A stretch of DNA of 64,000 nucleotides from Alteromonadaceae bacterium (GTDB lineage: Bacteria > Pseudomonadota > Gammaproteobacteria > Enterobacterales > Alteromonadaceae): NCBI GenBank assembly GCA_013216015.1, contig JABSOI010000019.1:42316-106315 (forward strand), given 5' to 3'. The notes beneath the pieces were generated by a model. The model made no database searches and was not told the origin of the DNA. It worked only from the letters and a program-made list of their open reading frames with translations. This document shows, in pieces, positions 31,351-59,745 of this stretch (the stretch's first letter is position 1; the number at the start of each line of letters is the position of its first letter). A program made the position numbers and the translations under genes.

Positions 31351-32160
31351 TTACCCCAATGCCTTTATTAAATTACTTTTATGCTTTTTGCCAACCCGAT
31401 AGTGTTGACCACCTTTGAGGTAAACAATATTGTCTTCTATATAGTCTATGTAGGCTTTATTGACTATGGCTGATTTATGGACACGAATAAAATCTGTCTG
31501 TGGTAAATATTCAGCAATGCCAGTCAAGGTTTTCAGGGTAAGTAAACAAGACTGGTCACGCCATACTTTGACATAATTACCATAAGCTTCAAGGACACTA
31601 ATTTCGCTTAGATCCACCCTGATCTGTTTGCGATCTACCTTGATTAAAATATGGGTAAGATTTTTCTCAGCCTGTTCTTTGATATTTGCGGGTGCAGCGG
31701 GTGCTTTTTCAGTGGTATCTTCAGATTGCAGATCCTGTTGGTTTTGTTGAACCTGTTGGCCTTGCTGAACCTTTTGACCTTGCTGAGACATGAGGCTATT
31801 GTGGCGGCTCAGGGCTTTATTCGTTGCCTGAAGAAAGCGGTCATATCGAAAAGGTTTCAGCAGATAATCGGTGACATCTAATTCATATCCCTGCAGTGCA
31901 TATTCCTGGTAGGCTGAGGTAATGATAACCTGAGGTTTATTGGGCAATACTTTTAGTAATTCAATGCCGGTTAGCACTGGCATTTGAATATCCAAAAAGA
32001 TCAAATCTACTTGCTGGTTATTTAGCCGTGTTAATGCCTCGGTGGCACTATAACACTGGCCTACAATTTCTATAAATGGAACTTCTTTGGCAAAGGTTAA
32101 AATAACATCATGGGCCAGCGGCTCGTCATCGATTATAAGTGTGCGTAATGTCATTGACAC
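31351..32160 (-). CDS. LytTR-family response regulator (REC, Q-rich linker, LytTR DNA-binding domain)
   Basis: LIIDDEP…DLIFLDIQMP. C-terminal FIRVHKSAIVN. Confidence 0.85.
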   Translation of the reverse strand: MSMTLRTLIIDDEPLAHDVILTFAKEVPFIEIVGQCYSATEALTRLNNQQVDLIFLDIQMPVLTGIELLKVLPNKPQVIITSAYQEYALQGYELDVTDYLLKPFRYDRFLQATNKALSRHNSLMSQQGQKVQQGQQVQQNQQDLQSEDTTEKAPAAPANIKEQAEKNLTHILIKVDRKQIRVDLSEISVLEAYGNYVKVWRDQSCLLTLKTLTGIAEYLPQTDFIRVHKSAIVNKAYIDYIEDNIVYLKGGQHYRVGKKHKSNLIKALG

Positions 32161-33788
32161 TCCAGAGTGAGATGAACATGGAAAGCATGCTGTTCATGGT
32201 TTATTTTCAAGCTGTATTTATCTTCATAGATCAAGGCCAAACGGCGCTGCAGGTTTTCCAGTCCTATGCCTAGTTGCGATGGCTTATAGTTACTTTCCAC
32301 CGAGTTACCACAATAAAACTTCAACGTATTGCCCTGCCTGCTGAGTTTAACCTTGAGCCAGGCATCTTCAAGTGATGGTTCTACGCCATGTTTAAAGGCA
32401 TTTTCAATTAAAATGATCAGCAATAACGGCGTAATATTGATGTTAGTTTCACTGTCGGCTGACTCTTCTTCAAAATCTACTTCAAACTGACATTTGTTGC
32501 TGACACGTACTTGCTGCAAGTCGAGATAATCTCGCAGGTATTGTACTTCTTCGGATAAAGGCACCGTTTTTTGACCTCCTTTATAAACAACAAAGCGCAG
32601 CAAACTGGCCAGTTGTTGCACTAGTTCAGGTGCTTTCTCTGATTTGGTCAGGCAAAGGGAATAGAGATTATTGAGGGTATTAAACAAAAAATGCGGATTA
32701 ATTTGTTGTTGCAGCAATAATAGTTCGGTATGAATATTTTGCTTTTCCATCTCTGCTAACTGCTGGCTTTTTTGTGCCCATTCTAATGCCAGAATTACCG
32801 GCAAACTGGTCAGCATAACGGCTAAAGCAAAAGAGCCATTTTGCCAATCAAAAGGGTTCTGGTTTTCGCTGATGATCATAGTATGTTCACCACTATTTAA
32901 TGGCAGCCATAATACCAGCTGGGCGGCAAGTGGATAACTGAACAGGATAAATAAAGCAGTAAACCAAAGGTAGTTGAAAATGCCATATCTGGCCATCACT
33001 TTGTTTACTAATATATGCCGGTTTATGTAGTAATAAGCAAAAATAATGGAATAGGTCAGCTGAATTTGCGCCCAGTAAATTAGGAAGTTATCCCAATGGA
33101 ATATAACTAATTTCAGGTCGATGACCATGTTATGTCCCGATTCAATTATCGGGTCGTTAAGCGGAGCAAACACTGCTGCCCAAAACAGGCTGAAAATTAA
33201 AGTTAAGGCAAACAAGCCATGATCTAATGTGAATTTAAATCTGAGAGGCTTTTTCTGTCTGCTTTGCAGCCATTTATTAAACAGTAAAGATGCTTCGATT
33301 ATCCAGATGAAAACAAAAGTCTCTAGTTGAATAAAGGGTAAAGCAGCCAGTTCCGGCAGGTTGTTTTCCAATATAAGCACAAGCAACGGATAGCCGAGAA
33401 AGACCAGACACCAGCACAGAATAGTTAGCTTTTTATTGAGTTGGATGTTGAGTTTGCTGTTGAGTTTGCTATTTTGCTTCCCTGTGAAGTTTTTAAATAC
33501 CAGTACCGGAGATATGAACAGGGTAAGCTGCAATAGTAAAACGACAAAATACCACCAGTCAGAATGGCCTGCCTGATTGGTTATCATCAAAGCTGGCGCC
33601 AATATAGCCACAGTAAAAGGCCATACTTGCCAATTGAACACCCCATTAAGCGAAGTAATCAGCTTGTTTAACTTCTCAGCAATTGATTTATGGCGGGATC
33701 CTGTTAATAAATGCACAAGGGTTCTCTGCTCAGCGATATTCTGAAATAAGTCATCATTTTGAACACATTGAGTAGATTTGTCACCCAA
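32151..33788 (-). CDS. LytS/YehU-type sensor histidine kinase (multi-TM N-terminus, His_kinase plus HATPase)
   Basis: QINPHFLFNTLNNLYSL motif. C-terminal N/G boxes. 10-nt overlap with the RR gene. Confidence 0.8.
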   Translation of the reverse strand: MGDKSTQCVQNDDLFQNIAEQRTLVHLLTGSRHKSIAEKLNKLITSLNGVFNWQVWPFTVAILAPALMITNQAGHSDWWYFVVLLLQLTLFISPVLVFKNFTGKQNSKLNSKLNIQLNKKLTILCWCLVFLGYPLLVLILENNLPELAALPFIQLETFVFIWIIEASLLFNKWLQSRQKKPLRFKFTLDHGLFALTLIFSLFWAAVFAPLNDPIIESGHNMVIDLKLVIFHWDNFLIYWAQIQLTYSIIFAYYYINRHILVNKVMARYGIFNYLWFTALFILFSYPLAAQLVLWLPLNSGEHTMIISENQNPFDWQNGSFALAVMLTSLPVILALEWAQKSQQLAEMEKQNIHTELLLLQQQINPHFLFNTLNNLYSLCLTKSEKAPELVQQLASLLRFVVYKGGQKTVPLSEEVQYLRDYLDLQQVRVSNKCQFEVDFEEESADSETNINITPLLLIILIENAFKHGVEPSLEDAWLKVKLSRQGNTLKFYCGNSVESNYKPSQLGIGLENLQRRLALIYEDKYSLKINHEQHAFHVHLTLECQ

Positions 33789-34022: not shown

Positions 34023-34904
34023 ATGCTGATGATTTCCAACCTGAATAAAACCTATGATAACGGTGTTAAGGCTCTCGTAGATATTAATTTAACGATAAAG
34101 CAGGGCATGTTTGGTTTACTGGGTCCTAACGGTGCAGGAAAATCGACCCTGATGCGAACTTTGGCAACATTGCAAAGTCCAGACAGTGGTGAAATTCTGT
34201 TCAATGGTCATAACATTCAGCATGATCCGCAAGCGGTGCGCAGCCACCTTGGTTATTTACCGCAGGAATTTGGTGTATACCCAAAAATATCTGCCTTTAA
34301 TTTGCTAAATCACTTTGCTATTTTAAAGGGATTAACCGATAAAGTGACACGGCTTGAACAAGTTAATGCGCTATTGCAGCAAACTAATCTTTATCAACAC
34401 AGGAAAAAAGCAGTCAGCAGCTTTTCCGGTGGTATGAAGCAGCGGTTTGGTATCGCACAGGCGCTGCTGGGAACACCAAAATTGGTGATTGTTGATGAAC
34501 CTACAGCAGGTTTGGATCCCGAAGAACGTAATCGGTTTCATAACGTATTGGCAGACATCAGCGAAAATACCATAGTGATCTTGTCTACCCATATTGTGGA
34601 AGATGTCAGCAACCTTTGTCCCGATATGGCGATCATGGCTGCAGGTTCTATTATCAAACAAGGGCCACCGCAAAAACTATTGGCTCAGCTGGCTGGAAGT
34701 ATTTGGCGTAAGCATGTCAACAAGCAGGAGATCAGCGAATACCAGCAACAATTCAAGGTGATCAGTCAGCGGCTGGTGGCGGGCAAGGTTCAGCTGCATG
34801 TGCTGAGTGAAAACTGCCCTGCGGCAGGTTTTGAACCGGTACAGGCGGATCTGGAAGACTTGTATTTCTCTGCGATTAATGGCATCGCGGCCAGAGGAAA
34901 TTAA
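34023..34904 (+). CDS. ABC transporter ATP-binding protein
   Basis: Walker A GPNGAGKST. Signature FSGGMKQR. Walker B LVIVDEPTAGLD. H-loop. Confidence 0.9.
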   Translation: MLMISNLNKTYDNGVKALVDINLTIKQGMFGLLGPNGAGKSTLMRTLATLQSPDSGEILFNGHNIQHDPQAVRSHLGYLPQEFGVYPKISAFNLLNHFAILKGLTDKVTRLEQVNALLQQTNLYQHRKKAVSSFSGGMKQRFGIAQALLGTPKLVIVDEPTAGLDPEERNRFHNVLADISENTIVILSTHIVEDVSNLCPDMAIMAAGSIIKQGPPQKLLAQLAGSIWRKHVNKQEISEYQQQFKVISQRLVAGKVQLHVLSENCPAAGFEPVQADLEDLYFSAINGIAARGN

Positions 34905-34905
34905 T

Positions 34906-37900
34906 ATGATGTTATCTTTGCTTAAATTTGAATGGCAGCTGCATTCCCGACAACCAGTATTTATGCTCGGGCTATTGGTCTGTGTTTTTTTTGGTGGTTT
35001 TTTAATTCAAAATCAATCGGTAGATTCAGATGTTTTGGTGGCTGGTCCCTATAACATGGCAAACAGTATCTGTATTCTGGCGTTAATGATAGTACCTTTT
35101 TTAGTTGGTGCATTTACTGGTAATGCCATTGTCAGAGACCGTAATGCCAGAATTACAGAACTGATATTCAGTACGCCCATAACCAAAATGCACTACCTAT
35201 TGTCAAGATGGTTGGGTCTGGTGGCTATCAGTAGTCTGGTATTTACATCTGCCATTATTGGTATTTTAGTCAGCTTGTTATTTTCCGACACTGGTGAAAT
35301 TGGCTTTGCCCATACTTTGTGGAGTTTGTTGTGGCCCTTGATAATTTTGATATTGCCAGGTATCGCGCTGCTGTCTAGTATATTGTTTGCAGTGGGTTTA
35401 TTCAGTAATCAAAACATTGCAGTATATATTGTCGCTGTCATAATTTTTTTGCTCTATCAATTATTGGCGGTCTATTCAGGTTCGCCGCTAATGGCTAATC
35501 CTATTGCACCCGACGAGACGCTAAAACAAATACTTTCTGGTATTGATCCTTATGGTGCCACCTCGTTTTTTGAACAGGTAAAATACTGGAGTCCAACGCA
35601 GCGTAATAGCCAGTTTTTTGAGTTAAAGGGGATGCTGTTATATAACCGGGTGGGGGTATTATTACTGTCTGTGGTTATTTTAGCTTTGTGTTATCGCAAG
35701 TTTGACTTTAAGTTAGCTAAGCATAAGACAGCCTCGAAAAGTAAAGCCGGCATTATTGAAAAATCGACTGTAGCAGAAATACAATACCGATATCAGCCCG
35801 TGCAACCCAATACCGGGATTAAGGCCAGCTGGCTGGCTTTTACTGAGCAATGTAAACTGGAATATTTATCAACCCTGAAAACGCGGGTGTTTTTTGCTGT
35901 ACTCGTTTTTTGGACTGTTGTGTTAGTGACCGAAATAATCGAAGGCCTTTCGTCACTTGAAAATTTGGGAACCACTCCAATTGCGTCCACCGCAGAGGCC
36001 TTGTGGCGCTTTCAATATGATGTTTTACCACGTTTTATCACCCTGTTTTTAGTCTATTTCGTGGCAGAAATGGCTTGGCGTGACGAAGAGAACAATGTCG
36101 CTAGTTTCATATATTCCAGCCCAGTTGCGAATATTAGTTTGTTTTTTGCCAAACTGATTGCATTACTGTTGATCCCCGTTACTTTTATAACTATTGCAAT
36201 TGGAATTTCATCCGGTTTACAAGTGATATACGGGGGGCAGGTTGAATGGTCATTATATTTGTCGCTCTATTATTATTCGGGACTGCCTATGGTGTGTATA
36301 GCGGCACTTTGTTTGTTTATTCACAGTGTCAGCCCTAATAAATTTGTCGGCATGAGTATTAGCTTTTCTCTGGTGATATTGGCGATAACCTCGTTAGGTG
36401 GCCAACTGGGACTTGAACATGGGTTGTTTAAATTCTCCACCAGTCCGCTAATGCAATATTCCGATCTCATCGGTTTTAATTCTACCTCTGATGCCTTTAA
36501 CGGTTATATAAAATACTGGCTCAGTTTGTCTGCCGTTATGGTGTTACTGGGTTATGGTTTCTACCGTCGTGGTGTTGGCGTACCTTTAAGGTTAAGAATA
36601 CAATATATTGGTAAACAAGGTGTTGGTAAACAAGGTGTTGGTAAACAATGGGGCTATCAAGGTCTGGCGTTGATGGTAGTTTCTGTATTGGCTTCAGGCT
36701 ATTTTGGCAGTGCGGTGTTTTATCAAACCAATGAAGTTGCCCATTATCAATCATCACAAGAGAGAGTGAACTGGCGTGCGGAGTATGAGCGTAAATATGA
36801 CCAATATGAACATATGCTCAGCCCGAAAGTAGTCAATATAAAAACTCACATGGCCTTGTACCCTGAGCAACACCGTTATCAAATGAAAGCTGACTTTACT
36901 TTGGTTAATTCCCACTTTGAGTCATTAAATCAGATTTTGGTCAGTACAGATGCCGATGTCCACTATCAGAATGTCGCCATTAGCGGTGCAACTCTGAGCC
37001 ATTACGACGCAGACTTTGGGCAATATTTGTTTAAATTAAATGCACCAATGTTACCTGGAGATCGCTTGCAGATGACTTTCACTGCTTCGCAAGTACAAAA
37101 TGGTTACCTGGGCCTGCAGCGAGATAACCTGATAACGCCCGGTTTCAGTTATGTACAAGCGCTGCGTTATATGCCGTTTTTTGGCTTTAACCATCATTAT
37201 CAGCTTAAATCTCCCTCGTTACGCCGGGATCAAGGTTTGCCAGAGCTGGCACCAGCATTGTCTTTAGAGCAAGCTGTTGATGAGGTTAAAGGAGACTTTT
37301 CTGCTGATTACGATTGGCTGGAATTTGAAACCGTACTGTCTACTTCGGCCGATGAAGTGGCTATAGCACCGGGTAAATTAATCAAAAAGTGGAAAAATAA
37401 TGATCGTAACTACTACCACTATAAAACAGCCGGACCGATCAGAAATGTGATCAGCTATATATCCGGCCGTTATAAGATGGCCAGCCGATTCGTAGACGGC
37501 ATTGAGTTACAAGTTTATTATCACGCAGAACATCAGGATAATGTTGAACATACCCTGGATGCCATGAGTGCATCGATAAATTATGCCAATAAGCATTTCG
37601 GTCGTTATCTTGGTGAACAACTGCGTTTGATGGAAGTGCCAAGGAATTTGGGATTGTCTGGTTATGCTATGCCTGAAACCATTTTAATCTCAGAGCTTGA
37701 GGGGTTTCGTACGGATCTGAGCAATAAAGAGGCGTTTGATCAGGTATTTCGTCGAACTGCCCATGAAGTTGCCCATCAATGGTGGGGACATGGGTTGGAC
37801 AGTGCAGCTGTAGAGGGTGGTACGGTTCTGGTGGAAACATTGGCAAAATACACCGAACTAGTACTATTGGAGCAGCGTTATGGCAATGAATATGTGAGAC

Positions 37901-38559
37901 GACTGATGAAATATGAACATCGGCGTTATTTTAATGGCCGTGGTTATAGCAGTGAGCATGAGTTACCTTTGTATCGGGCCGACGCAAGATATTTGGTTTA
38001 TAGCAAAGGGGCGGTGGCAATGTATGCGCTTAAGAACATTTTGGGAGAAGAGGCTATCAACCAGGCATTGCGTCAATTAATGCAAAACCATAAATATCCG
38101 AAAATACCTGCCACAACGCTAGACCTGATAGCAGCATTGAAACAGACGACTACAGCTAATAACTATCCGGTAATTGATCGCTGGTTAAAGCAAATTATTA
38201 TTGATGATTTGTCGATAACCTCGGCCAGTTATCAGCAACTCGGCAATAGTCACTATAAAGTAAATGTTTGTCTGCAAAGTCAGCAAACCAAGGAAGACGG
38301 GCTAGGCAACAGCTTTGCGATATCGACTGAAACCACAGCATGGTTAGGGGTTTTCAGTGAACATCCTGATAACTTGATTAGCAGGGGCTCGGATAGTGCG
38401 GTATTAAAAATAGCTAAAGTGGCGGTGAAATCAGAAGGTAATTGTCTGAGTTGGACAGTCGCTGGGAAACCAACTCATATCGCCATCGATCCTTTCTATC
38501 AGAAGTTGGATCAGCAACGTGACAACAATGTATCGGTTCCGGTCTTTGCATCAAAATAG
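34906..38559 (+). CDS. ABC-2-type permease fused to M1-family zinc-peptidase domain (about 1217 aa)
   Basis: ATG 1 nt after the ATPase stop, with a GGAAA RBS. About 12 TMs in the first ~620 aa. C-terminal HEVAHQWWGH…E zinc site and GYAMPE in place of GAMEN. Confidence 0.8.
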   Translation: MMLSLLKFEWQLHSRQPVFMLGLLVCVFFGGFLIQNQSVDSDVLVAGPYNMANSICILALMIVPFLVGAFTGNAIVRDRNARITELIFSTPITKMHYLLSRWLGLVAISSLVFTSAIIGILVSLLFSDTGEIGFAHTLWSLLWPLIILILPGIALLSSILFAVGLFSNQNIAVYIVAVIIFLLYQLLAVYSGSPLMANPIAPDETLKQILSGIDPYGATSFFEQVKYWSPTQRNSQFFELKGMLLYNRVGVLLLSVVILALCYRKFDFKLAKHKTASKSKAGIIEKSTVAEIQYRYQPVQPNTGIKASWLAFTEQCKLEYLSTLKTRVFFAVLVFWTVVLVTEIIEGLSSLENLGTTPIASTAEALWRFQYDVLPRFITLFLVYFVAEMAWRDEENNVASFIYSSPVANISLFFAKLIALLLIPVTFITIAIGISSGLQVIYGGQVEWSLYLSLYYYSGLPMVCIAALCLFIHSVSPNKFVGMSISFSLVILAITSLGGQLGLEHGLFKFSTSPLMQYSDLIGFNSTSDAFNGYIKYWLSLSAVMVLLGYGFYRRGVGVPLRLRIQYIGKQGVGKQGVGKQWGYQGLALMVVSVLASGYFGSAVFYQTNEVAHYQSSQERVNWRAEYERKYDQYEHMLSPKVVNIKTHMALYPEQHRYQMKADFTLVNSHFESLNQILVSTDADVHYQNVAISGATLSHYDADFGQYLFKLNAPMLPGDRLQMTFTASQVQNGYLGLQRDNLITPGFSYVQALRYMPFFGFNHHYQLKSPSLRRDQGLPELAPALSLEQAVDEVKGDFSADYDWLEFETVLSTSADEVAIAPGKLIKKWKNNDRNYYHYKTAGPIRNVISYISGRYKMASRFVDGIELQVYYHAEHQDNVEHTLDAMSASINYANKHFGRYLGEQLRLMEVPRNLGLSGYAMPETILISELEGFRTDLSNKEAFDQVFRRTAHEVAHQWWGHGLDSAAVEGGTVLVETLAKYTELVLLEQRYGNEYVRRLMKYEHRRYFNGRGYSSEHELPLYRADARYLVYSKGAVAMYALKNILGEEAINQALRQLMQNHKYPKIPATTLDLIAALKQTTTANNYPVIDRWLKQIIIDDLSITSASYQQLGNSHYKVNVCLQSQQTKEDGLGNSFAISTETTAWLGVFSEHPDNLISRGSDSAVLKIAKVAVKSEGNCLSWTVAGKPTHIAIDPFYQKLDQQRDNNVSVPVFASK

Positions 38560-38630: not shown

Positions 38631-39074
38631 ATGGTCCAAAGGAAAAATCTCAAAATGTTAAATAAAATTCTGCTCATGATATTAACCCTATCTTTGTCAA
38701 CAGGAGCTTTTTCAACAGTACATTTATCAACCGTAGCTAGCAGTAACTCTGCGCCTGATAACGAAATTTTAACTGCACAACATGCTTTTTTTCAGGGTGA
38801 TACCAGACTAGCCGAGAAACTGTTGGCTGGCGAGTCGGAGTATCAGTCATTGGCTTTAGCGCAACTGCAGGTGATGCTGTGGATCGGGCGGGAAGAAGCT
38901 GACAAAGCAACGGAGTTACTATTAAAGTTGCAAAAAAGATATAGTTCCAATGCAGACTATCATTATTTCGCTGGCGGTATGTGGCGACAATTAGGTCATC
39001 AGGTTAGCGTTTGTTCCAAGATTAAATATTATCGTCGAGCTGTTTTGCCGCCTATATTCTTGCCGGGAAATTAG
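38631..39074 (+). CDS. Secreted TPR-like protein, N-terminal part (likely same gene as 39125-39679, frameshifted)
   Basis: Signal peptide. A third frame bridges the two ORFs (…AAYILAGKLAPDNARYVTKQASVYGQLDMMGG…). Confidence 0.35.
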   Translation: MVQRKNLKMLNKILLMILTLSLSTGAFSTVHLSTVASSNSAPDNEILTAQHAFFQGDTRLAEKLLAGESEYQSLALAQLQVMLWIGREEADKATELLLKLQKRYSSNADYHYFAGGMWRQLGHQVSVCSKIKYYRRAVLPPIFLPGN

Positions 39075-39124
39075 CTCCGGACAACGCCAGATATGTAACG
39101 AAACAGGCCAGCGTTTACGGACAG

Positions 39125-39679
39125 TTGGATATGATGGGGGGTGACAGCAAAAAGCAACGGCCTATTCTAGCCAAAGTTCAGTCGCTGAACTCACAATATG
39201 GCTTAGTAGCGGCGATGGATTTAGCTCAAAACGAAGAAAACCATAAACTTGCAGCCCAATTGGCTGAACAAGCCGTCTCTCAATATCCCAATAGTTTTTT
39301 ACTGTTAGTTAGAGCCGCTAAAATGCATTCATCACCTTTAAAAAATAAGATAAAAGCTCAACAACTGTATGCTCAGGCTTGTCAGTTACCAGCCCAATCA
39401 GGGCTAGACAGAATAAACTGGATATCGAGTTGTTATCAAGTAGAACACTTGGCCGGGAAAACTAAAAATTTTGACTTAGTGGTTATTGCCATGCAACGCT
39501 TGTTGGCTGTTAATCAATTGGCAACAAGTGAAAATGATCAGGCTCGGTTGTATTTGGCCCAGATGGCAAATGAAGTTGGCCAAACAGCACTAGCTAAACA
39601 ACAATATAACCTCCTCGCTATTGGGGCACTGGACAAAAAGCTCCGCAAAAAAGCGAGGATGAAATTGAAAGATTTGTGA
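39125..39679 (+). CDS. TPR-like protein, C-terminal part
   Basis: Helical repeat sequence. Confidence 0.35.
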   Translation: MDMMGGDSKKQRPILAKVQSLNSQYGLVAAMDLAQNEENHKLAAQLAEQAVSQYPNSFLLLVRAAKMHSSPLKNKIKAQQLYAQACQLPAQSGLDRINWISSCYQVEHLAGKTKNFDLVVIAMQRLLAVNQLATSENDQARLYLAQMANEVGQTALAKQQYNLLAIGALDKKLRKKARMKLKDL

Positions 39680-40261: not shown

Positions 40262-43200
40262 TTATTTATCTTTTGATAATTCCCTGCTTATTTTTTGAAT
40301 ATGTGATTCTGAATTATTGCTCCTGTTTTGAGAGGAAACATTAAGTGTCTTTAAAGTATCTATCATTGCTAAATCAACATCTTTACGGCTTTGTAAAGTG
40401 GTTACCAGTGGCGTTAAGAAAGATTCAAGGCTTTGAGAAAACAAAGATAAAGTTTTTTCTAATTCAGTATTCTCAGTATTTTCGGGTTTTTCTACATTCA
40501 CTTGCAGTTTAAGTTTAGCGAGAGTTTCGTTCAGTTGCTCTAAACCACCTGATTGTGGCTGCTGTAATGCGCTGCCAATTGTAGATAGGCCTTGTTGTAA
40601 TAAAGATATTTGACTGGCAATAGTTGCCAGGGGATCACCACCATCCCCTAAGTTCTGATGACGAACAAAGTCGGCTTTAATTTGCTTCCAGCGCTCTGTT
40701 TGTTCTTTGGTTTGCTTATTACGTAATTCAGCCAGTTTCAGCAGATTTTCTTCAGCACCTACCGTTAAGGTTTGCGCTTCGCCACGGTAATGATCACTAA
40801 TAAGCTGTTCTAACTCTTCATCTGTCATCACAGGCACTACTTTTTCAGCCATTTTATTCATATTGCGGTAACTACCCTGCAATTTAAATGGTGGTTCAGT
40901 GCGATATTTATCGTCTTGGGCAGCCGAGGCAATATACTGTTCATTTGCCTTGAGTACGGTTTGCTGGATTTTACGGATCCGTTTGATCACAGCCACAATT
41001 TCATTAACTTCAGCTTGTGAATAGCCATACTTTAATTCGTTCAGCGAAATTGGTCCGCCATCTGCCATTTGAACCAGCTGATACAAATCATCCATATCAC
41101 GGGTAGCAAGTGGCGCTATATAAGAGTTACTGGTTAAACTGTTTTCAATGAAACTTAATGAAAATTCATGTTCACGGCCACTTAAAGTATCCCCTAAATT
41201 GTAAATGTCGGCACGGTTTGCCAGCATATCAGGAATAGTAAATGCCTCACCTGATTCCGTATACGGATTGCCCGCCATTACTACGGCAAACTTTTTACCG
41301 CGCATATCATAAGTTTTGCTTTCACCGTTCCAAACGCCGTCTACCCGTCTTGAGCCATCACAAAGGGAAATGAATTTTTGTAGAAACTCAGGATTAGTAT
41401 GCTGAATGTCATCTAGGTATAACATTACGTTATTGCCCATTTCAAAGGCTAAATTGATTTTTTCAACTTCACTTTTTGCTGTCGAGTTATTTGCCTGCGC
41501 GGGATCTAATGACAATTGGTCATGACCAATAGAAGGGCAGTTCACTTTGACGAATGTCATCCCCAGTTTACTGGCCACATATTCAATAAGTGTTGTTTTA
41601 CCGTAACCCGGAGGCGAAATAAGTAATAATAATCCCATTAAATCGGAACGTTTATTATTGCCTGCAGCCCCAATTTGTTTGGCTAAATTGGTGCCGATAA
41701 TAGGGAAGTAAACATCGTTGATTAATTTATTACGAACAAAAGAAGCTAATGCACTAGGTTTAAACTCATGTAATTTCAGTCGTTTACGCTGTTTCTCAAT
41801 TACTTGCTGTTTAAGTTGATGGAAATTAGTAAAAGCGGGTACTTGTTCATTGCAAAAACGTCGAAGTCGAGTGATGAATTCCTGGTAACTGATCAATATT
41901 TCACGTTCTTTAATACGTGCATGTTGACCAAGCAAGCCAGTAATTTTACCCTCGGTATTTGCCGTTGAGGAATAAAATTCCATTTGATTAGTGAATGTCA
42001 TGAAGCTTGCCGCTTCAATAAGCAAATCACTATCAACACCGTTTTCCTGATGATTGGCAAATGATTGTAACCAGCCAAGATGCAATTGATATTTCAGCGC
42101 CAGACTTGAGCATGCCCCCAGGGCAGAGTTTAATTGCGATGTCAGACTTTTATGTTTTAATTGAGTTTGCAGTTGTCTGACGAGTTCAGCACTGGCTTCT
42201 TTGTTTACAAATGTCTGTTTGCCCTGAGCGAATTCTTGGATCAGGTAGTCGGCTGCTAATGAAACATCACAACTTAACCAAGATTGCTCTGTTACAAGAC
42301 ATGCTAAAGCTTGTGCCAGTTCACCACAAAGTTGAGGACGTAATTGACTCGAACCAAAAGTTTCTTCCATAAGATGTAAATTAAGACAACGATTCACCAG
42401 ATCCTGACGGGTTTTCTCATTGAGTTCAGTTTGAAAATAAACCAAAGCTAATCGTCGCTCTGGTGCAGCATAAGCAAGTAAGCCTACGGATGCACGTAAA
42501 GTTAATAATTCAGCTAAAATTAAGCTGGCATCTGAGTCGTGCACGCCTTTGTCATAACCTTCCTGATAACGAGGTTCGGCAAATTTTTGTATAAGTTTAA
42601 GCAGTTTTTTATTATTCAGCGCATCAGTCAGCTCGTTAACTGCTGCTACGCCGTTAGCTTCAGCTTCAAATAAAATGCTGGCGGCTAAATATTCTGCCCG
42701 ATATACCTGATCACTTTCTGAAATTAAATTTTGTTGCCACAAATATTCACTGCCGGCGAATAAAGTTGGATCCAGTGATTCAAAATAATCACTGCCGCTG
42801 ATGTGCAATACCATTGCCTGACCCCGTGGCAATAACGTTAATTCTAATTTTTGTCGGTTAACAGAAAATTGATGTTCGCCAATTTTAACCAGGCTGCCAT
42901 CGGCTGAATAAATGTCGGTTTTATCACGCAGTGCGCGAATGCCTTGCTCTTTAGCATTTTTTAACTGGGCATCAATATCGTCCGCACGTACGTTGTCATC
43001 TAAACTGCGTAACTGTTCGCTGAGTGCACGTAATTTGGAGACCATAGGATCGGCGGCGAAATAACTATTGAGTTTGTCTTGATCATTGAAAGCCTGGCTT
43101 CGACGATTAACTCCGGCAATAATGCGTTCTGCTGCGGTCATTAAATTTAAACAACGACGTTGCTGAGCATCCATAAGTTGCTGTTTATGTTGTTCAAAGT

Positions 43201-45550
43201 TGTCGTATATTTCGTCTCTTTTAGCCAGAATTTCATTATAAAATTCATCGTAATCGCTAAATTGGCTTTCCAAATTTTCTAATTGGATCAGTAATTGAGA
43301 CAGTTGTTGGTCACATTCTTGAGGTGAATCACTGGCATTTAAAGCACTGGTGACACTTTGAGTCAGCAGCTTGAAACGTGCACCAAATTCAGCGCGGGCT
43401 TCTTCTGAGCCAACACTTTTTGTTGCAATATCAGCACTGGCTTTAACACGGTTTATTTGACTAAATATGCTGGAGATATCTTCTAAAATACGGGTGCGCT
43501 GACGGCTGTCGTCAATATTCAGCGATAACATGGTATGGTTCAGCAGTTCTAAGCCCTGTACCAGTTCGTCTACAGCTGTGCGAATAGGTTTTAATGCGGT
43601 AATTGACTGGGCTTGTGCTACTTCAGCATCTAATTGGGCAATTTTATTTTCGTAAGGAGCGAATGCTTGATCTTGCTGTAGAAAATCAGCCGTGGCTTGG
43701 CTTAAATTTGCTGACAAAGATGCTAATTCAGCCGCCATCAGGTCAATTTCAGTTAAATCGACATATTTCAGTTCTTTGTGAGAAATTAACTTGCCATTAA
43801 AGTTTGCTAGTTCTGACAAACCTTCAACATATTGTTGTGCGTTGTCAAAGACAGGTGCTTTCATTTGATTAATGAGCTGGTCAAGTTTTTCTCTTGCTTG
43901 CAACATAACCTGATCAGATTTATTTTTGATGCTGGTTACTTTTTCAAATTCATCCAGCACCAATTCTGAGGTGGTTACCACTTGTTTTAATATTTGATTA
44001 AGTTGAGCTAATTCAGGATCGGTTAACCAATGATATTTATCCAGTAATTGGCCTGATTGTTTTACTAAATCATTAAAATGGTAGGCACTGGGTTCCTGTG
44101 TTGAAATTAGCCTTGCAACACCGTATAAATCAGAAATACCACGGACTAATTCTGGGTTGCCAATTTTACCGAAGAAACTATTATCGGTTGGTTGCAAACT
44201 GGCGTGTTCTTCACTGCAAAAAGGAGTTTGCCATATTTGCATGGCATGTACCCGTGAAGGCTCTTCTTCGGCATTAAAAACGATAGCTCTACCGTTAATA
44301 TGTAAACTTTGCCCATGACCGTAAATTGGATTTTGCAGGGTTCGGGTGATCAAATTATAACTGAATAAGGCGTATTGACCTTCGTTCGGTTCATAAAAAA
44401 TATAGAGTACGTCTTCGCCATTTGGTGATTTAACGACACGATGTAATTGCAGATCTTTTGCGCTGTCATCAAAGCTTTTGTTTTCGCCACTTTGTAAGTA
44501 ATAGCCGCCGGGAAAAATAATACCGTGATCTTCCGGTAACTGAATACAGGCATGGGCGATGGCGTCTTGCCTGATAACTTTTTGGGTTTTTGAATTATAA
44601 ATCAGATGACGTGTTTGTTGCTCTCGGTAAGGCTTTATTTTAAGCAGAATTAACTCGCCAACTTTCGCATAGTGAATTTGTGCGTCATCCAAAGATTGAT
44701 GTTGGTCATCAACATTTTCTGAATAAATGCCTTCGCCGTCTTCGGTATTGTTTTCTATTTTTATGGTTAATGTGCCACCAATAGCTTCAACAAACAGGGT
44801 ATCAAATATATTAAAATGCGGATGTTTGCCTTTTTCTTGTTGCTCACGTGAAACTTTGCACCATTCAAAATCAAAGTTTTCCGGTTGCTTTATATCTCGT
44901 TCACCTCGGTTATCAATGTATTTAACCTGGTTGTCGGCATCAATACCCCAGCGAAAAACGCGTATATCATCCAGTCTTTCGCCAATACGGAAAATGGCGA
45001 ATACCTTGCTACCTTGACGATACACATGGCTAAGATAGGTTTTTTTATAATATGTATATAATTCGTCAAAATCGCGGACGAATTCCGGGTGTTCTAAAAA
45101 GCTGCCTTGCAGTGGCAGATCGATAATTTCCAACTCACTATTTTGCGGGTTATCAGGAGGTGAATTACCAGGAGGTGAATTATCAGGAGGTGAATTACCA
45201 GGAGGTGAATTACCAGAAACAGAAGCAGTGGTGCTTTCTTTTACTTGATGCAAACTAAAAACATCAGCAACGGTGATATTACGTTTTAATCCTAAAAAAA
45301 CGTTATAGCCAAAAAGTAAAGTATCACCAATTGCAGCAATATCCCGTGCGACACAATTATGTTCAGTACGCACCCGAACCCGTGCCGCCACTTTCATGTC
45401 GGTTGAGCCAAATGTCGACATTCGCTGGTCATTAAGCTGTTTTAGTTGAGTGTTTAACTCTTCACCAAGTGCAGTTAACCTACGCTGAATAAGCTCATAT
45501 GATCCGCCTTCTGCAACGGCTTGATTAGTGACTTTGTCCTTATCCGACAT
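40262..45550 (-). CDS. Giant (1762-aa) protein with a single MoxR/AAA_5-like AAA+ ATPase module near aa 1200-1400, coiled-coil regions and SPPGN/SPPDN tandem repeats
   Basis: Walker A LISPPGYGKTTL. Walker B VMLYLDDIQH. Long N-terminal region without recognisable motifs. Intact ORF. Confidence 0.7.
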   Translation of the reverse strand: MSDKDKVTNQAVAEGGSYELIQRRLTALGEELNTQLKQLNDQRMSTFGSTDMKVAARVRVRTEHNCVARDIAAIGDTLLFGYNVFLGLKRNITVADVFSLHQVKESTTASVSGNSPPGNSPPDNSPPGNSPPDNPQNSELEIIDLPLQGSFLEHPEFVRDFDELYTYYKKTYLSHVYRQGSKVFAIFRIGERLDDIRVFRWGIDADNQVKYIDNRGERDIKQPENFDFEWCKVSREQQEKGKHPHFNIFDTLFVEAIGGTLTIKIENNTEDGEGIYSENVDDQHQSLDDAQIHYAKVGELILLKIKPYREQQTRHLIYNSKTQKVIRQDAIAHACIQLPEDHGIIFPGGYYLQSGENKSFDDSAKDLQLHRVVKSPNGEDVLYIFYEPNEGQYALFSYNLITRTLQNPIYGHGQSLHINGRAIVFNAEEEPSRVHAMQIWQTPFCSEEHASLQPTDNSFFGKIGNPELVRGISDLYGVARLISTQEPSAYHFNDLVKQSGQLLDKYHWLTDPELAQLNQILKQVVTTSELVLDEFEKVTSIKNKSDQVMLQAREKLDQLINQMKAPVFDNAQQYVEGLSELANFNGKLISHKELKYVDLTEIDLMAAELASLSANLSQATADFLQQDQAFAPYENKIAQLDAEVAQAQSITALKPIRTAVDELVQGLELLNHTMLSLNIDDSRQRTRILEDISSIFSQINRVKASADIATKSVGSEEARAEFGARFKLLTQSVTSALNASDSPQECDQQLSQLLIQLENLESQFSDYDEFYNEILAKRDEIYDNFEQHKQQLMDAQQRRCLNLMTAAERIIAGVNRRSQAFNDQDKLNSYFAADPMVSKLRALSEQLRSLDDNVRADDIDAQLKNAKEQGIRALRDKTDIYSADGSLVKIGEHQFSVNRQKLELTLLPRGQAMVLHISGSDYFESLDPTLFAGSEYLWQQNLISESDQVYRAEYLAASILFEAEANGVAAVNELTDALNNKKLLKLIQKFAEPRYQEGYDKGVHDSDASLILAELLTLRASVGLLAYAAPERRLALVYFQTELNEKTRQDLVNRCLNLHLMEETFGSSQLRPQLCGELAQALACLVTEQSWLSCDVSLAADYLIQEFAQGKQTFVNKEASAELVRQLQTQLKHKSLTSQLNSALGACSSLALKYQLHLGWLQSFANHQENGVDSDLLIEAASFMTFTNQMEFYSSTANTEGKITGLLGQHARIKEREILISYQEFITRLRRFCNEQVPAFTNFHQLKQQVIEKQRKRLKLHEFKPSALASFVRNKLINDVYFPIIGTNLAKQIGAAGNNKRSDLMGLLLLISPPGYGKTTLIEYVASKLGMTFVKVNCPSIGHDQLSLDPAQANNSTAKSEVEKINLAFEMGNNVMLYLDDIQHTNPEFLQKFISLCDGSRRVDGVWNGESKTYDMRGKKFAVVMAGNPYTESGEAFTIPDMLANRADIYNLGDTLSGREHEFSLSFIENSLTSNSYIAPLATRDMDDLYQLVQMADGGPISLNELKYGYSQAEVNEIVAVIKRIRKIQQTVLKANEQYIASAAQDDKYRTEPPFKLQGSYRNMNKMAEKVVPVMTDEELEQLISDHYRGEAQTLTVGAEENLLKLAELRNKQTKEQTERWKQIKADFVRHQNLGDGGDPLATIASQISLLQQGLSTIGSALQQPQSGGLEQLNETLAKLKLQVNVEKPENTENTELEKTLSLFSQSLESFLTPLVTTLQSRKDVDLAMIDTLKTLNVSSQNRSNNSESHIQKISRELSKDK

Positions 45551-56307: not shown

Positions 56308-58338
56308 TTATTTACTCAATAAAAGCTCATTGATAAGAGAATGATGCTCTTGTAAAGAAATGTGCTTTAATGCCCTGACAAAATCCATCGAAGTGGCAGG
56401 TGTATTTGGGTAGGCATGCTGTAACCAAAGCGATTTAAGCGCTGCTATTATGGCCTTATCCCCTACAGTTTCGCGTAGTTTGGCAAACGCTAAGGTGGCT
56501 CGCGAATACACATCATGGTCTTGCATGGCATCTACAAGAGCGACTGGTGCCTGTAAATTATTGCGTTCGCTGAGATCAAAGCGTTTTTGTTCATACACGA
56601 CCAGAGAGAGCATAGCTTCTCGCCCATAATGTTTTTCAAGTAAAACCAGTTCGATGTATTTGACCAAAGATTCTGCAAGAAATGAGTGGTCTTCAGGAAC
56701 ACCATTACCAATGCCATGACCAAACCATTGATGCGAAGTTTCATGAACAGCTCGGCGATAACGTTGGTCAAAGCCTGCATTTGAGGATGGCACGGCGCGA
56801 AAACCTAATTTTTCACTTATCAGTATAATCTCCGGCAAGGTATAGCCAGCAGGACCTAAATCAGGTGTAGCGACTAAGTTAAGCTGAGCAGCGTTATAAG
56901 GAGATATGTGTTTGGCAAACCAATCTAATGTATCTGTTATTGCCTTAATGTGTAATTGGGCGGCTTGGTTTTTATGCGGAGTATACACATTGATGGTGGT
57001 ACCCTTGATGGTTTTGGATACGGCAGAATAAGGCACTGATAACCACGCTGGAATGGCGCGAACAGGCTTTTTAGTTTGGTATTTAAAGTAAGAGCGTTTG
57101 TTGTCTTGCCAGCTGCTTATTAACTCACCCTGGCTAATCGCATAATGGCCTTTGAGGGTTGAAATTACAGTACTCAGAGACGACCATTGATAAGCCCCAG
57201 AGTTATTGGTTTCATCTTTAAAAAGTACAGAAGGCAACTGTCGCTTAATTTCTTTCAGGTTATACTTTGCTCGGACTTGTGCATTTTTTAACTGATAATC
57301 AACTTGATAGCCGATAGTTGGTAGCAGTGTGAAAGAGCGAAGATAGGTAAACTCTGGCTTAACGACTTGATGTGAACGATGTGGCCATACTTGTGGTTGT
57401 TTAAAGGTAAACTCTGCGTGCAAAATACGCTGCTCGTTCGGTAATATTGCCTGTGAGAACTGGTAAGTTCCTTGGTTAAGATCAGCATTAAATTCAACCA
57501 GTGTGGCTCCATCGAGCGTGATATCACCAAAACCGTAATTGCCATATCGCCCGACTAAAACCTGTTTGATTGGTGTGCGGGTACGATTTTCTAACGTGTA
57601 ACTAAGTTTGAAATTGGCAAGTTGCTGCTCTGGGTAAATATCAATTTTAGAATCAATGTGAACAACTGAAGGTTGTGGTTTGTGCTGCCAGTCATCTAAG
57701 TCAGTTTCATACTGTGCTTTCCATGCTTCACGTTTGTCAGAATTAACCAATGGTTTTTCGCTGATCAGTGATAGATGCAAGTTCAAGCCGATAAATAAAG
57801 TAATAAAACACGAGACGAGTATTCTTCCTGGTAAGTGCTTTATTGAGGCTCTTCCAAGGCCTGTTCCGCGATGTGAAAAGTTAGTGGCAAGTAAAAACAG
57901 GCTAATACAAGCTGCTAACCATACAGTCATGTAGGGCAAGTAAACTGACGCACTGGCGCTATAACCCCAAAAGTTATCAGGAGCTTGAAGGGGGGAGTCA
58001 GCAATATTCCAAAGTGTATGGGTCATCCCTAACGAAGTGGCGAGTCCGGTAAATTTTATCAATAAAATTAGGGCGATAATAATGCCGGATATAACGCTTG
58101 AGCGATAAATGTGATGTATGCAAATAAATATGGTGCCAAGCAATAGTAGCGGTAAACCCGTTAGGCTTAACTGCACCACATAGTGATGAAATAACAATTC
58201 ACTGCCAGCAAACAGTTCAGCAATGCTGCTGCCGACGAAAGTAAGCAAAAGAAGCAATGCCAGCATCACAGTAAGCGCAATAACTTGAGCCAAAACAAGT
58301 TGGATATTGGAAATTGGTGAAGCGGCGATCAGCTCCAA
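56308..58338 (-). CDS. Membrane M1-family zinc-peptidase-like protein (TM N-terminus plus M1 domain); paralogue of C-terminal half of 34906-38559
   Basis: HETSHQWFGHG…E. GYTLPE in place of GAMEN. TTG start. 10-nt overlap with the upstream permease ORF. Confidence 0.7.
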   Translation of the reverse strand: MELIAASPISNIQLVLAQVIALTVMLALLLLLTFVGSSIAELFAGSELLFHHYVVQLSLTGLPLLLLGTIFICIHHIYRSSVISGIIIALILLIKFTGLATSLGMTHTLWNIADSPLQAPDNFWGYSASASVYLPYMTVWLAACISLFLLATNFSHRGTGLGRASIKHLPGRILVSCFITLFIGLNLHLSLISEKPLVNSDKREAWKAQYETDLDDWQHKPQPSVVHIDSKIDIYPEQQLANFKLSYTLENRTRTPIKQVLVGRYGNYGFGDITLDGATLVEFNADLNQGTYQFSQAILPNEQRILHAEFTFKQPQVWPHRSHQVVKPEFTYLRSFTLLPTIGYQVDYQLKNAQVRAKYNLKEIKRQLPSVLFKDETNNSGAYQWSSLSTVISTLKGHYAISQGELISSWQDNKRSYFKYQTKKPVRAIPAWLSVPYSAVSKTIKGTTINVYTPHKNQAAQLHIKAITDTLDWFAKHISPYNAAQLNLVATPDLGPAGYTLPEIILISEKLGFRAVPSSNAGFDQRYRRAVHETSHQWFGHGIGNGVPEDHSFLAESLVKYIELVLLEKHYGREAMLSLVVYEQKRFDLSERNNLQAPVALVDAMQDHDVYSRATLAFAKLRETVGDKAIIAALKSLWLQHAYPNTPATSMDFVRALKHISLQEHHSLINELLLSK

Positions 58339-59402
58339 AGGGCAATTATAAACGCGCCTATGACTGGAAGCACCTCAAAAGCAACACGGTTGAGCGCATC
58401 TATACTATTTGGCACGATGACAGACAGTGGCTCTACATATTGGATGCCAGGGAGCACCTCATTAAAGATTAAAATTGGCCAAATGAAGAGTATGACTTGC
58501 GTTACCCGGCTGTACAACAGGGTAAAGAGCGGTATTTTAATTAACTGCATGAGAGGCGACTTGGGCAACCAGTATTTTGACCTTGGTTGATCTTTGGCGA
58601 GTTCAGGCTGTGCAGCAAAAGTATCGAGCTGTTTTTTAGTCGTCTTTGACTTTATTTTTATAGTTAGCGTGAAATACACAAGCGCAACACTTACCAGCAG
58701 ATACGCTAAGCGGTTTGCCATCAGTTCACCGCTAATATAGCTATTTGCTGACTTTATGCTATCGAGTACAGCACTGAGGCCATAGGGATCAAACCATAAC
58801 ATAGCGTTATAAAAAGTATCGTTGACCAGACTGCTACCGGCAATGATCACAGAACCTGTCATGCTGGCCAGAACCAGGTAACCCATACCAAATACCGCGA
58901 AGCTGACATAAATAACCATGACACTTTGCAGGTAAATCGAGAGCCAGAGCGCAAGCGCTGTACCAAATAATACCCCAGGTAATACCAGAAATATTAGGTT
59001 GAGCATTGTCAGGGTGAAAAACTCCGTAACAAAGCCCATCTGAAGCGAATACAAGCAAAACGTAATAAGAAAGCTTGAAATAAATATCAGCATAATAAGG
59101 CTGACAATAGCACAATAGCGGAGTAACCAGCGTTTATTACTGGTTATGGGTGTGCTGTGGATAAGCTCCGTCATGTTGGCTGCCGTATCGCGCAGGTATA
59201 CAACGGGCGATAACATCCCCAGCAAGATAGGCAATGCTAAAATAATGAGGGTGAATTGGGTGAAATGTAGCTGATTTTCCGGGCTATAATCACCTTCAGG
59301 AATGCCTACTGAGAGTAAATAGGCAAAAAGCGGCATAATGAACAGGCTCAACAATACGAGCGGCTGACGTAAACAAAATCGCAATTCATTGATAAACAAC
59401 AT
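58329..59402 (-). CDS. ABC-2-type permease-like membrane protein; paralogue of N-terminal half of 34906-38559
   Basis: MLFINELRFCLRQPLVLLSLF… aligns with MMLSLLKFEWQLHSRQPVFMLGLL…. GGAG RBS upstream. No ATPase gene adjacent. Confidence 0.65.
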   Translation of the reverse strand: MLFINELRFCLRQPLVLLSLFIMPLFAYLLSVGIPEGDYSPENQLHFTQFTLIILALPILLGMLSPVVYLRDTAANMTELIHSTPITSNKRWLLRYCAIVSLIMLIFISSFLITFCLYSLQMGFVTEFFTLTMLNLIFLVLPGVLFGTALALWLSIYLQSVMVIYVSFAVFGMGYLVLASMTGSVIIAGSSLVNDTFYNAMLWFDPYGLSAVLDSIKSANSYISGELMANRLAYLLVSVALVYFTLTIKIKSKTTKKQLDTFAAQPELAKDQPRSKYWLPKSPLMQLIKIPLFTLLYSRVTQVILFIWPILIFNEVLPGIQYVEPLSVIVPNSIDALNRVAFEVLPVIGAFIIALWS

Positions 59403-59496
59403 TAGCTATTCTCCTTTGCCATAAGTTCAAAAAAATACCTGTCTTGCAAACTTGCTTCAGCCAAAGTGGCATCTTCAGCAGGTTTGGTTTTGCTGA

Positions 59497-59745
59497 TATT
59501 ACATTGCAGAAGCCTACGGCAACTATGTAAAGCTTTGGCGGGGCGATGATATTACATTAGTTAGCAGTAGTTTGAAGCTAGTAATTGAACAACTGCCAAA
59601 TAAACAGTTTACTCAGGTGCACAAGTCTTTCGTCGTTAACAATTCTAAAGTTGCGGCGGTGGAAACAGAGTTTCTCACACTTGAATGTGGTCGAATTATT
59701 AAAGTCGGGAAGTCGTTTAAGAAAATGGTGCAGCAGCTGCTTTAA
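59497..59745 (+). pseudogene. C-terminal fragment of a LytTR DNA-binding domain gene
   Basis: YYIAEAYGNYVKLWRGDDITLVSSSLKLVIEQLPNKQFTQVHKSFVVN… No receiver domain or start upstream. Confidence 0.5.

What the first reader, a model, noticed from the sequence alone, without database searches (positions are those of the whole stretch)
56308..59745. Second, split paralogue of the permease::M1 module next to a LytTR gene remnant; the ATPase and TCS are lost
58329-59402 is a permease-like ORF and 56308-58338 is a membrane M1-like ORF. They overlap by 10 nt in different frames. Residue by residue they align with the N- and C-halves of the fused 34906-38559 protein, for example EVLPVIGAFIIAL versus DVLPRFITLFLVY. 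The split copy lacks about 15 residues at the junction. Immediately upstream, 59497-59745 encodes only the C-terminal half of a LytTR domain, with no receiver domain or start. No ABC ATPase is adjacent. This suggests an ancestral TCS-ATPase-permease-M1 module duplicated within this region. One copy is decaying, or it underwent gene fission.
Basis: seen in the sequence. Interest (0 to 1): 0.65.

Follow-up and report, generated by a model that had tools for sequence, protein, structure and literature searches.

The report
Decaying second copy of transporter-peptidase module
The two overlapping genes are the halves of one transporter-peptidase gene broken by a 43-base deletion, in a copy that had already lost its regulators and ATPase to a roughly 2.9-kb deletion, so this is ordinary gene decay and not a new split-gene design.

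Summary
ORFs 58329-59402(-) and 56308-58338(-) overlap by 10 nt and match the fused permease::M1 protein at 34906-38559 (E 1e-20 and 2e-105). The split is a recent lesion. Other assemblies of the same population, at least 99.5% identical, carry one 1045-aa ORF. The window differs by a 43-nt deletion between two GGAGCTG repeats. It removes 13 conserved residues (WFICSRDKSCNIA), shifts the frame and creates a TGA. All 46 related genome loci with enough flank, plus four further orthologue loci, have one uninterrupted fused ORF. Each has an ABC ATPase directly upstream and a divergent histidine kinase and LytTR response regulator. In the window a single deletion of about 2.9 kb joined the regulator's LytTR domain (59492-59745, +) to the last 30 codons of the ATPase (59402-59495, -). 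It removed the receiver domain, the kinase, the divergent intergenic region and most of the ATPase. One same-population contig still has the ATPase, two have the large deletion only, and the window has both deletions. So "decaying" is right and "gene fission" is rejected. "Duplicated within this region" is not supported: the copies are 26-29% identical and belong to old, separate clades. Interest is low. The four-gene cassette itself appears uncharacterised.

The parts
58329..59402 (-). 5' fragment of the permease::M1 pseudogene: codons 1-357 of the 1045-aa gene (TM1 to a truncated TM8), ending in a premature TGA created by the frameshift
58330..58336 (-). Deletion scar: the single remaining copy of the 7-nt direct repeat GGAGCTG. 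The intact allele has GGAGCTG, 36 nt, then GGAGCTG here, so 43 nt are missing
   Evidence: the L070 scaffold has a run of N exactly between the two repeats
56308..58338 (-). 3' fragment of the pseudogene. From 58335 it corresponds to codons 371-1045 of the intact gene (short inside helix, TM9-TM13, two-domain M1 metallopeptidase with HETSH). The listed ORF begins at a TTG that I read as having no Shine-Dalgarno sequence upstream
59402..59495 (-). 3' remnant of the ABC ATPase gene: the last 30 codons, SKTKPAEDATLAEASLQDRYFFELMAKENS, plus a TAA that overlaps the permease ATG as TAATG
   Evidence: 100% identical to the C-terminus of the intact ATPase on L068
59492..59745 (+). Remnant of the response-regulator gene, about residues 155-238 of 238, which is most of the LytTR domain. 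ADITL is read in one frame. A 1-nt gap relative to orthologues follows near 59507, then EAYGNYVKLW...QQLL and the stop. There is no receiver domain and no ATG/GTG/TTG start before 59572
   Evidence: annotated at NCBI as an 80-aa LytTR regulator
31351..33788 (-). Intact paralogous module (copy 1): LytTR response regulator at 31351-32160 and PF06580 histidine kinase at 32151-33788
34023..38559 (+). Intact paralogous module (copy 1): ABC ATPase at 34023-34904 and fused ABC-2 permease::M1 protein at 34906-38559 (1217 aa)

Best explanation
The locus is the wreck of a second four-gene cassette. In relatives the cassette has this layout: LytTR response regulator and LytS-type (PF06580) histidine kinase on one strand, and ABC ATPase followed by an ABC-2 permease::M1-peptidase fusion on the other. 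Two deletions destroyed it in order. First, a single deletion of about 2.9 kb joined codon ~155 of the response regulator to codon ~255 of the ATPase. That removed the receiver domain, the whole kinase, the divergent intergenic region (inferred to hold the promoters) and most of the ATPase. Second, in the window's strain only, 43 nt were lost between two GGAGCTG direct repeats inside the permease::M1 gene, the pattern expected of replication slippage or microhomology-mediated deletion. This removed 13 conserved residues at the end of TM8 and the start of the TM8-TM9 inside loop, shifted the frame and produced an immediate TGA. The two 'genes' are therefore the fragments of a pseudogene. Shown: both deletions, their order, the polymorphism within the population, and the fused ancestral state. 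Inferred: that the fragments are not expressed or not functional, and what the intact cassette does.
For: (1) P0001, a 1045-aa fused ORF, comes from the same population. Its DNA (L005) is 99.6-99.8% identical to the window and colinear apart from the 43-nt segment flanked by GGAGCTG repeats.
(2) The cluster of sequences at least 90% identical holds six distinct 1045-aa variants alongside the 357-aa and 676-aa forms.
(3) The deletion allele appears in four other assemblies: one ENA sample assembly and three Logan assemblies of separate runs (L001-L004). It is also the deposited NCBI MAG sequence.
(4) 59 of the 61 homologues found are 953-1131 aa; the two shorter ones are a record marked partial (696 aa) and a 776-aa metagenome protein that I did not examine. 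All 46 genome loci with enough flank have one uninterrupted ORF of 1046-1303 aa with the ATPase upstream and HK+RR divergent. The same holds for L006-L009.
(5) The window's minus strand upstream of the permease ATG encodes the last 30 aa of the ATPase, and the plus strand encodes RR residues ~155-238.
(6) L068, with the same downstream flank (47-aa ORF, RtcB, HTH_26) and 99.7-99.8% identity to the window and to L005, still has the ATPase gene. L005 and L066 have the large deletion with an intact fused ORF.
(7) The deleted residues fall in a conserved block, ALWSW.IC.RDK..NIAELIAA, in 18 orthologues. They lie inside the second membrane half: the end of helix 333-365 and the start of short helix 367-375 in the model.
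(8) Another strain, L069, has a separate 1-nt deletion at codon 898, just before HEXXH, in the large-deletion background.
(9) A Cognaticolwellia MAG keeps only a 400-nt fragment of this gene, readable in three frames.
Against: No expression data exist. The TTG at 58338 lies 7 nt upstream of the TGA, so low-level termination-reinitiation cannot be excluded. The fused ORF has stayed open in several strains that already lack the ATPase. That may only reflect how recent the deletion is, but it could also mean residual use. The SNP pattern does not separate the hypotheses: 6 nonsynonymous to 2 synonymous in the gene, against 19 to 8 in the flanking genes. No raw reads were examined. The regulator-side breakpoint is mapped only against orthologues, because no same-species full-length regulator was found.
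Confidence: 0.9

Rival explanations
1. Functional gene fission: the two ORFs are translated separately, the second by coupling at the overlapping TTG, and they assemble into a working permease-peptidase.
For: There is a 10-nt overlap of stop and start. The allele is present in several assemblies. The 3' fragment keeps the HEXXH motif and all M1 parts.
Against: The break removes 13 conserved residues and truncates TM8 to about 14 hydrophobic residues. It lies inside a membrane domain, not between domains. None of the 46 genome loci, nor L006-L009, is split, and all but two homologues are 953 aa or longer. The cognate ATPase, kinase, regulator and divergent intergenic region are gone. I see no Shine-Dalgarno sequence before the TTG (my reading). 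The intact fused allele coexists at at least 99.5% identity, so the split is very young.
Confidence: 0.03
2. Assembly or sequencing artefact: the 43-nt deletion is not present in any real genome.
For: Everything comes from metagenome assemblies. One scaffold (L070) has a run of N exactly at this site.
Against: The same junction appears in four other assemblies (one ENA sample assembly, three Logan run assemblies) and in the deposited MAG sequence. A 7-nt repeat is, from general knowledge of assemblers, too short to collapse a de Bruijn graph. The N-run fits two alleles coexisting in one sample.
Confidence: 0.03
3. The orphan fused gene (large deletion only) was still functional, powered by the ATPase of copy 1 and transcribed from a fortuitous promoter. 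On this view the 43-nt deletion is a loss-of-function allele of a live gene, not a second hit on a dead one.
For: Six distinct intact 1045-aa variants persist, and at least two of them sit in the large-deletion background. The two ATPases are 50% identical. The permease keeps what I read as its AAGGAG ribosome-binding site (my reading).
Against: The whole divergent intergenic region was deleted. Promoter-like sites in the region are fewer than in shuffled sequence, 5 against 11.9. In every relative the permease start overlaps or abuts the stop of its own ATPase, which suggests a dedicated pairing. Two independent disruptive lesions are seen in this background.
Confidence: 0.12

Closest known systems
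Fused ABC-2 permease / M1 peptidase proteins (source names: 'ABC transporter permease/M1 family aminopeptidase', 'M1 family aminopeptidase', 'ABC-2 type transport system permease protein'), e.g. Pseudoalteromonas tunicata P0027 and Neptunicella sp. P0030
   Same: The reconstructed intact allele is 55-72% identical to these proteins over its full length. It has the same layout: about 13 predicted membrane helices followed by a two-domain M1 metallopeptidase. Relatives share the same neighbours, an ATPase plus a PF06580 kinase and a LytTR regulator.
   Different: The window copy is broken by a 43-nt frameshifting deletion and has lost its ATPase, kinase and regulator. Two full-text searches found no functional study of the family.
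Two-domain M1 zinc metallopeptidase of Deinococcus radiodurans (PDB 6a8z, 6ifg) and other M1 aminopeptidases (ERAP1/2, IRAP, LTA4H)
   Same: The C-terminal ~480 residues of the model match these folds, with Foldseek E about 1e-14 and TM-score 0.62 normalised to the target. Weak profile matches cover the HEXXH region. There is a Pfam Peptidase_M1 hit.
   Different: Sequence identity is only 12-15%. The domain is tethered to a transporter by an extra membrane helix. The GXMEN-like motif is degenerate: GYTLPE here and GYALPQ in most orthologues. The glutamate follows the second histidine of HEXXH by 19 residues by my count, not 18.
Bce-type modules of Firmicutes (BceRS-BceAB), in which an ABC transporter is genetically and functionally coupled to a two-component system for sensing and resisting peptide antibiotics. 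This comparison is from my own knowledge and serves only as a working analogy.
   Same: A two-component system is placed divergently next to an ABC ATPase and permease, and the cassette occurs as several paralogues per genome.
   Different: The permease family differs (ABC-2, not FtsX-type), as do the kinase (PF06580 LytS-type) and the regulator (LytTR, not OmpR-type). This cassette also has a fused M1 peptidase. No functional link has been tested. It is not a member.
Ordinary bacterial pseudogenes formed by slippage or microhomology-mediated deletion between short direct repeats (general knowledge)
   Same: One repeat copy plus the intervening sequence is lost exactly (7 + 36 nt), giving a frameshift and an immediate stop. 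The event follows loss of the partner genes.
   Different: Nothing unusual. The only bonus is that three successive states are caught in one natural population.

Membership tests
ABC-2 permease::M1 peptidase fusion family (copy-2 clade) | A single uninterrupted ORF of about 1050 aa joining the membrane domain and the M1 domain | tested here: not met
   The window has two ORFs in different frames. The intact allele P0001 and all 46 genome loci with enough flank are single ORFs. The window copy descends from the family but is a broken member.
ABC-2 permease::M1 peptidase fusion family (copy-2 clade) | Full-length sequence homology to family members | tested here: met
   The 676-aa fragment is 65-72% identical to P0002-P0027 over 100% of its length. 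The N-terminal fragment is the first 357 residues of P0001, apart from three substitutions.
ABC-2 permease::M1 peptidase fusion family (copy-2 clade) | Cognate ABC ATPase gene directly upstream, with its stop overlapping or abutting the permease start | tested here: not met
   Only the last 30 codons remain, at 59402-59495. The ATPase is present in all 46 relatives and in the same-population contig L068.
ABC-2 permease::M1 peptidase fusion family (copy-2 clade) | Divergent PF06580 histidine kinase plus Response_reg-LytTR regulator | tested here: not met
   The kinase is absent, and the regulator is reduced to about 84 residues of its LytTR domain with a frameshift.
Peptidase family M1 | HEXXH zinc motif with a downstream glutamate, on the M1 catalytic-domain fold preceded by the beta-rich N-domain | tested here: met
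   HETSH with a downstream E in FLAES. Pfam PF01433 gives E=8e-9, above the gathering score. The fold matches two-domain M1 peptidases.
Peptidase family M1 | GXMEN exopeptidase motif | tested here: inconclusive
   The aligned position reads GYTLPE, GYALPQ in most orthologues and GYAMPE in copy 1. The motif is degenerate, so aminopeptidase specificity is uncertain.
Pseudogene (non-functional remnant) | A disrupting mutation relative to an intact, conserved ancestral reading frame | tested here: met
   A 43-nt deletion with frameshift and premature stop relative to an intact allele at least 99.5% identical. The partner genes are truncated by a deletion of about 2.9 kb.
Pseudogene (non-functional remnant) | Absence of expression or function | not testable with these tools
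   No transcript, protein or read data are available. The promoter scan is uninformative.
Bce-type transporter/two-component resistance module | FtsX-type permease with a large extracellular domain, an intramembrane-sensing kinase and an OmpR-type regulator | tested here: not met
   Pfam shows ABC2_membrane families, PF06580 and LytTR instead. The comparison is an analogy only.

The most novel reading that the evidence does not exclude
The conserved four-gene cassette is an uncharacterised envelope system. It comprises a LytS-type kinase, a LytTR regulator, an ABC ATPase and an ABC-2 permease carrying a probably periplasmic M1 peptidase, and it occurs as several old paralogues per genome in Alteromonadales. 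It may couple peptide sensing or export to peptide trimming. On this reading the window population is a natural knock-out series (intact, then the large deletion, then both deletions), which shows that one paralogue is dispensable in situ and that the permease::M1 gene decays once its ATPase is lost.
Probability: 0.3. Interest if true: 0.45.

Novelty: new member of a known kind. Interest (0 to 1): 0.2.

Why it matters
The main value is as a correction. The two NCBI 'hypothetical proteins' (NQY34791.1 and NQY34792.1) and the 80-aa 'LytTR family transcriptional regulator' on this MAG are pseudogene fragments, not a split-gene architecture or a stand-alone regulator. A secondary point is that the locus documents, within one marine population, the order in which a regulated transporter cassette decays: the regulators and ATPase go first, and the orphaned permease-peptidase follows. 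It also draws attention to a widespread four-gene cassette for which two full-text searches found no functional study.

Tried and rejected
- A genome-contig scan with the single protein P0001 found nothing. Repeating it with an 18-sequence alignment worked.
- phmmer of P0001 against PDB sequences found nothing. The profile search gave only weak M1 hits.
- NCBIfam has no model for either fragment.
- I searched with the LytTR remnant to find a same-species full-length regulator and so map the left breakpoint at the DNA level. It returned only the remnant's own NCBI annotation.
- The dN/dS-type SNP count was meant to show relaxed selection. It gave 6 nonsynonymous to 2 synonymous in the gene, but the flanking genes show the same ratio (19 to 8), so I dropped it as evidence.
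- The promoter scan found fewer sites than shuffled sequence and is uninformative.
- Two full-text literature searches for the fusion family or cassette returned nothing relevant.
- A search for the sample accessions found only a data-availability list of marine metagenomes.
- L070's 572-aa product first looked like another lesion, but it results from a scaffold gap of Ns at the indel site.
Full report
**1.

On the minus strand there is a 357-aa ORF (59402 to 58329, ATG start) and a 676-aa ORF (58338 to 56308, TTG start). They overlap by 10 nt in different frames. BLASTP against the fused protein at 34906-38559 gives E=1e-20 (26% identity) for the first ORF against the N-terminal 375 residues. 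It gives E=2e-105 (29% identity over 696 columns) for the second ORF against residues 401-1094. The second ORF matches Pfam Peptidase_M1 above the gathering score. The translation of 59497-59745(+) matches LytTR model positions 13-97 of 98, so most of that domain is present and not half of it.

**2. What split the gene**

A database search with the 676-aa ORF returned P0001, a 1045-aa protein that matches the query at a reported 100% (three substitutions on closer comparison). It also returned 54 orthologues at 40-72% identity. All but two of these are 953-1131 aa long and fused: one of the two is a record marked partial, and the other is a 776-aa metagenome protein I did not examine. Six more distant homologues of 1056-1180 aa were also found.

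P0001 reads ...EVLPVIGAFIIALWS-WFICSRDKSCNIA-ELIAASPIS..., so it joins the two window ORFs through 13 extra residues. Its contig, L005, has the same flanking genes as the window and is 99.6-99.8% identical to it. The only structural difference is a 43-nt segment:
- intact allele: CCCTTT GGAGCTG GTTTATTTGCTCGCGCGATAAAAGCTGTAATATCGC GGAGCTG ATCGCC
- window: CCCTTT GGAGCTG ATCGCC

One repeat copy and the 36 nt between the repeats are missing. That is the pattern expected of slippage or microhomology-mediated deletion. Because 43 is not a multiple of three, the frame shifts and a TGA follows at once. The downstream 'ORF' starts only because a TTG happens to lie in the new frame. I see no Shine-Dalgarno sequence ahead of it (my reading).

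**3. The deletion is unlikely to be an artefact of one assembly**

The same junction appears in one ENA sample assembly and in three Logan assemblies of separate runs (L001-L004). The window's sequence is itself the deposited NCBI MAG ('Alteromonadaceae bacterium', NQY34791.1 and NQY34792.1). The 90%-identity cluster also contains six distinct 1045-aa variants, so both alleles circulate. One scaffold, L070, has a run of N exactly between the two GGAGCTG copies, as expected if the assembler met both alleles in one sample. I could not inspect raw reads.

**4. The break is not at a domain boundary**

Hydropathy analysis and an AlphaFold model (mean pLDDT 75.7) indicate two six-helix membrane halves, a thirteenth helix, and then the peptidase. 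The K/R-rich loops at 71-98, 251-289, 363-371 and 525-537 place the peptidase on the periplasmic side. This placement is an inference from the positive-inside rule.

The deleted residues 358-370 form the end of TM8 and the start of a short inside helix. That helix repeats the LRDxxxNMxELIxxTP motif of the first half. The block ALWSW.IC.RDK..NIAELIAA is conserved across 18 orthologues. I infer that this loop is the contact with the ATPase, by analogy with ABC-2 exporters. The analogy is from my own knowledge and was not tested. The window allele also carries S318P at a column that is invariant in the alignment.

**5. The neighbours**

In orthologues at 72% and 65% identity (L006-L009, including Pseudoalteromonas tunicata), the layout relative to the permease strand is RR (Response_reg+LytTR, opposite strand), HK (PF06580, opposite strand), then ABC ATPase (286 aa) followed by the fused gene, whose start overlaps the ATPase stop.

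A scan of species-representative genomes gave 53 loci. All 46 with enough upstream sequence have this arrangement and one uninterrupted ORF. They come from Pseudoalteromonas, Rheinheimera, Paraglaciecola, Thalassotalea, Colwellia, Neptunicella, Alteromonas, Psychrosphaera, Arsukibacterium and Alishewanella, plus one record labelled Flavobacterium and several unclassified MAGs. The other 7 loci are cut by contig ends or are fragments.

In the window, the minus strand just upstream of the permease ATG encodes SKTKPAEDATLAEASLQDRYFFELMAKENS*, the last 30 residues of the ATPase, with TAATG overlap. The plus strand encodes ADITL / EAYGNYVKLW...QQLL*, which corresponds to regulator residues ~155-238. 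A 1-nt gap relative to orthologues lies near 59507. The two remnants abut at 59492-59495 (GCTG). One deletion of about 2.9 kb therefore removed the receiver domain, the kinase, the divergent intergenic region and about 255 codons of the ATPase.

**6. Order of events**

Three states exist at this locus in the same population:
- L068 has the same downstream genes and is 99.7-99.8% identical to the window and to L005. It still carries the ATPase gene (281 codons visible before the contig ends), and its C-terminus is identical to the window remnant.
- L005 and L066 have the large deletion with an intact fused ORF.
- The window and L001-L004 have both deletions.

The large deletion therefore came first.

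A further contig, L069, has a different lesion in the large-deletion background: a 1-nt deletion at codon 898, just before HEXXH. It rests on one contig only. A Cognaticolwellia MAG retains only a 400-nt fragment of this gene, readable in three frames. These observations fit a gene that decays once its partners are lost.

SNP counts do not add to this. The gene shows 6 nonsynonymous to 2 synonymous differences, and the flanking genes show 19 to 8.

**7. Paralogy**

Copy 1 (34906-38559) has its own orthologues at 42-62% identity and about 1200 aa, each with the same four-gene layout. In a neighbour-joining tree the two copies fall into separate multi-genus clades that are 23-27% identical to each other. 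The duplication is therefore old and did not arise locally in this region. Paraglaciecola arctica carries two paralogous cassettes about 80 kb apart on one contig.

**8. What the intact cassette may do (inference only)**

It looks like a two-component system controlling an ABC-2 type transporter whose permease carries a periplasmic two-domain M1 zinc peptidase. The peptidase fold matches Deinococcus M1 peptidase, ERAP and LTA4H at E about 1e-14. HEXXH is conserved in 16 of 18 orthologues, and the GXMEN motif is degenerate. A role in sensing, exporting or trimming peptides at the envelope is plausible, loosely like Bce-type modules, but it is untested. I found no literature on it.

**9. Verdict**

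'Gene fission' and 'local duplication' are not supported. This is ordinary pseudogenisation, neatly documented. Interest is low.

Noticed in passing
window 30359-31040 (-): The OmpR-type response-regulator ORF 30359-30949 starts inside its receiver domain. Just upstream, a different frame reads AIGIESNVVDNLLKRFKTCILNDYGYIS, which looks like the missing receiver N-terminus. This may be another frameshifted gene.
   Followed up: partly
window 38631-39679 (+): Two short ORFs (147 and 184 aa) lie directly downstream of the copy 1 permease::M1 gene. I did not check whether they are one interrupted gene or two genes.
   Followed up: no
L063 497-896 (Cognaticolwellia sp. MAG, JBAROR010000087.1): Only a 400-nt fragment of the copy-2 M1 domain (residues 846-977) remains, readable in three different frames. 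It is an independent, more advanced decay of the same gene in a related genome.
   Followed up: partly
L069 about 7282 (gene codon 898): Another strain of the same population has a G>T change plus a 1-nt deletion just before the HEXXH motif, giving a 970-aa product. It rests on a single contig, so an assembly error is not excluded.
   Followed up: partly
orthologues P0009 and P0024 (alignment A1, HEXXH region): Two metagenomic orthologues have N in place of the first zinc-binding His (AVNETAH, AVNQTAH), so some family members may be catalytically inactive.
   Followed up: no
window 34906-38559 (+), protein residues about 560-580; window 40262-45550 (-): There are short tandem peptide repeats: GKQGVGKQGVGKQ in the inside loop before the last membrane helix of copy 1, and SGNSPPGNSPPDNSPPGNSPPDN near the N-terminus of the 1762-aa ORF.
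   Followed up: no
L067 position 1 (SRR7648289 contig): This Logan contig begins about three bases inside the ATPase remnant, next to the 2.9-kb deletion breakpoint. An assembly-graph branch there would suggest that deleted and undeleted alleles coexist in that sample.
   Followed up: no
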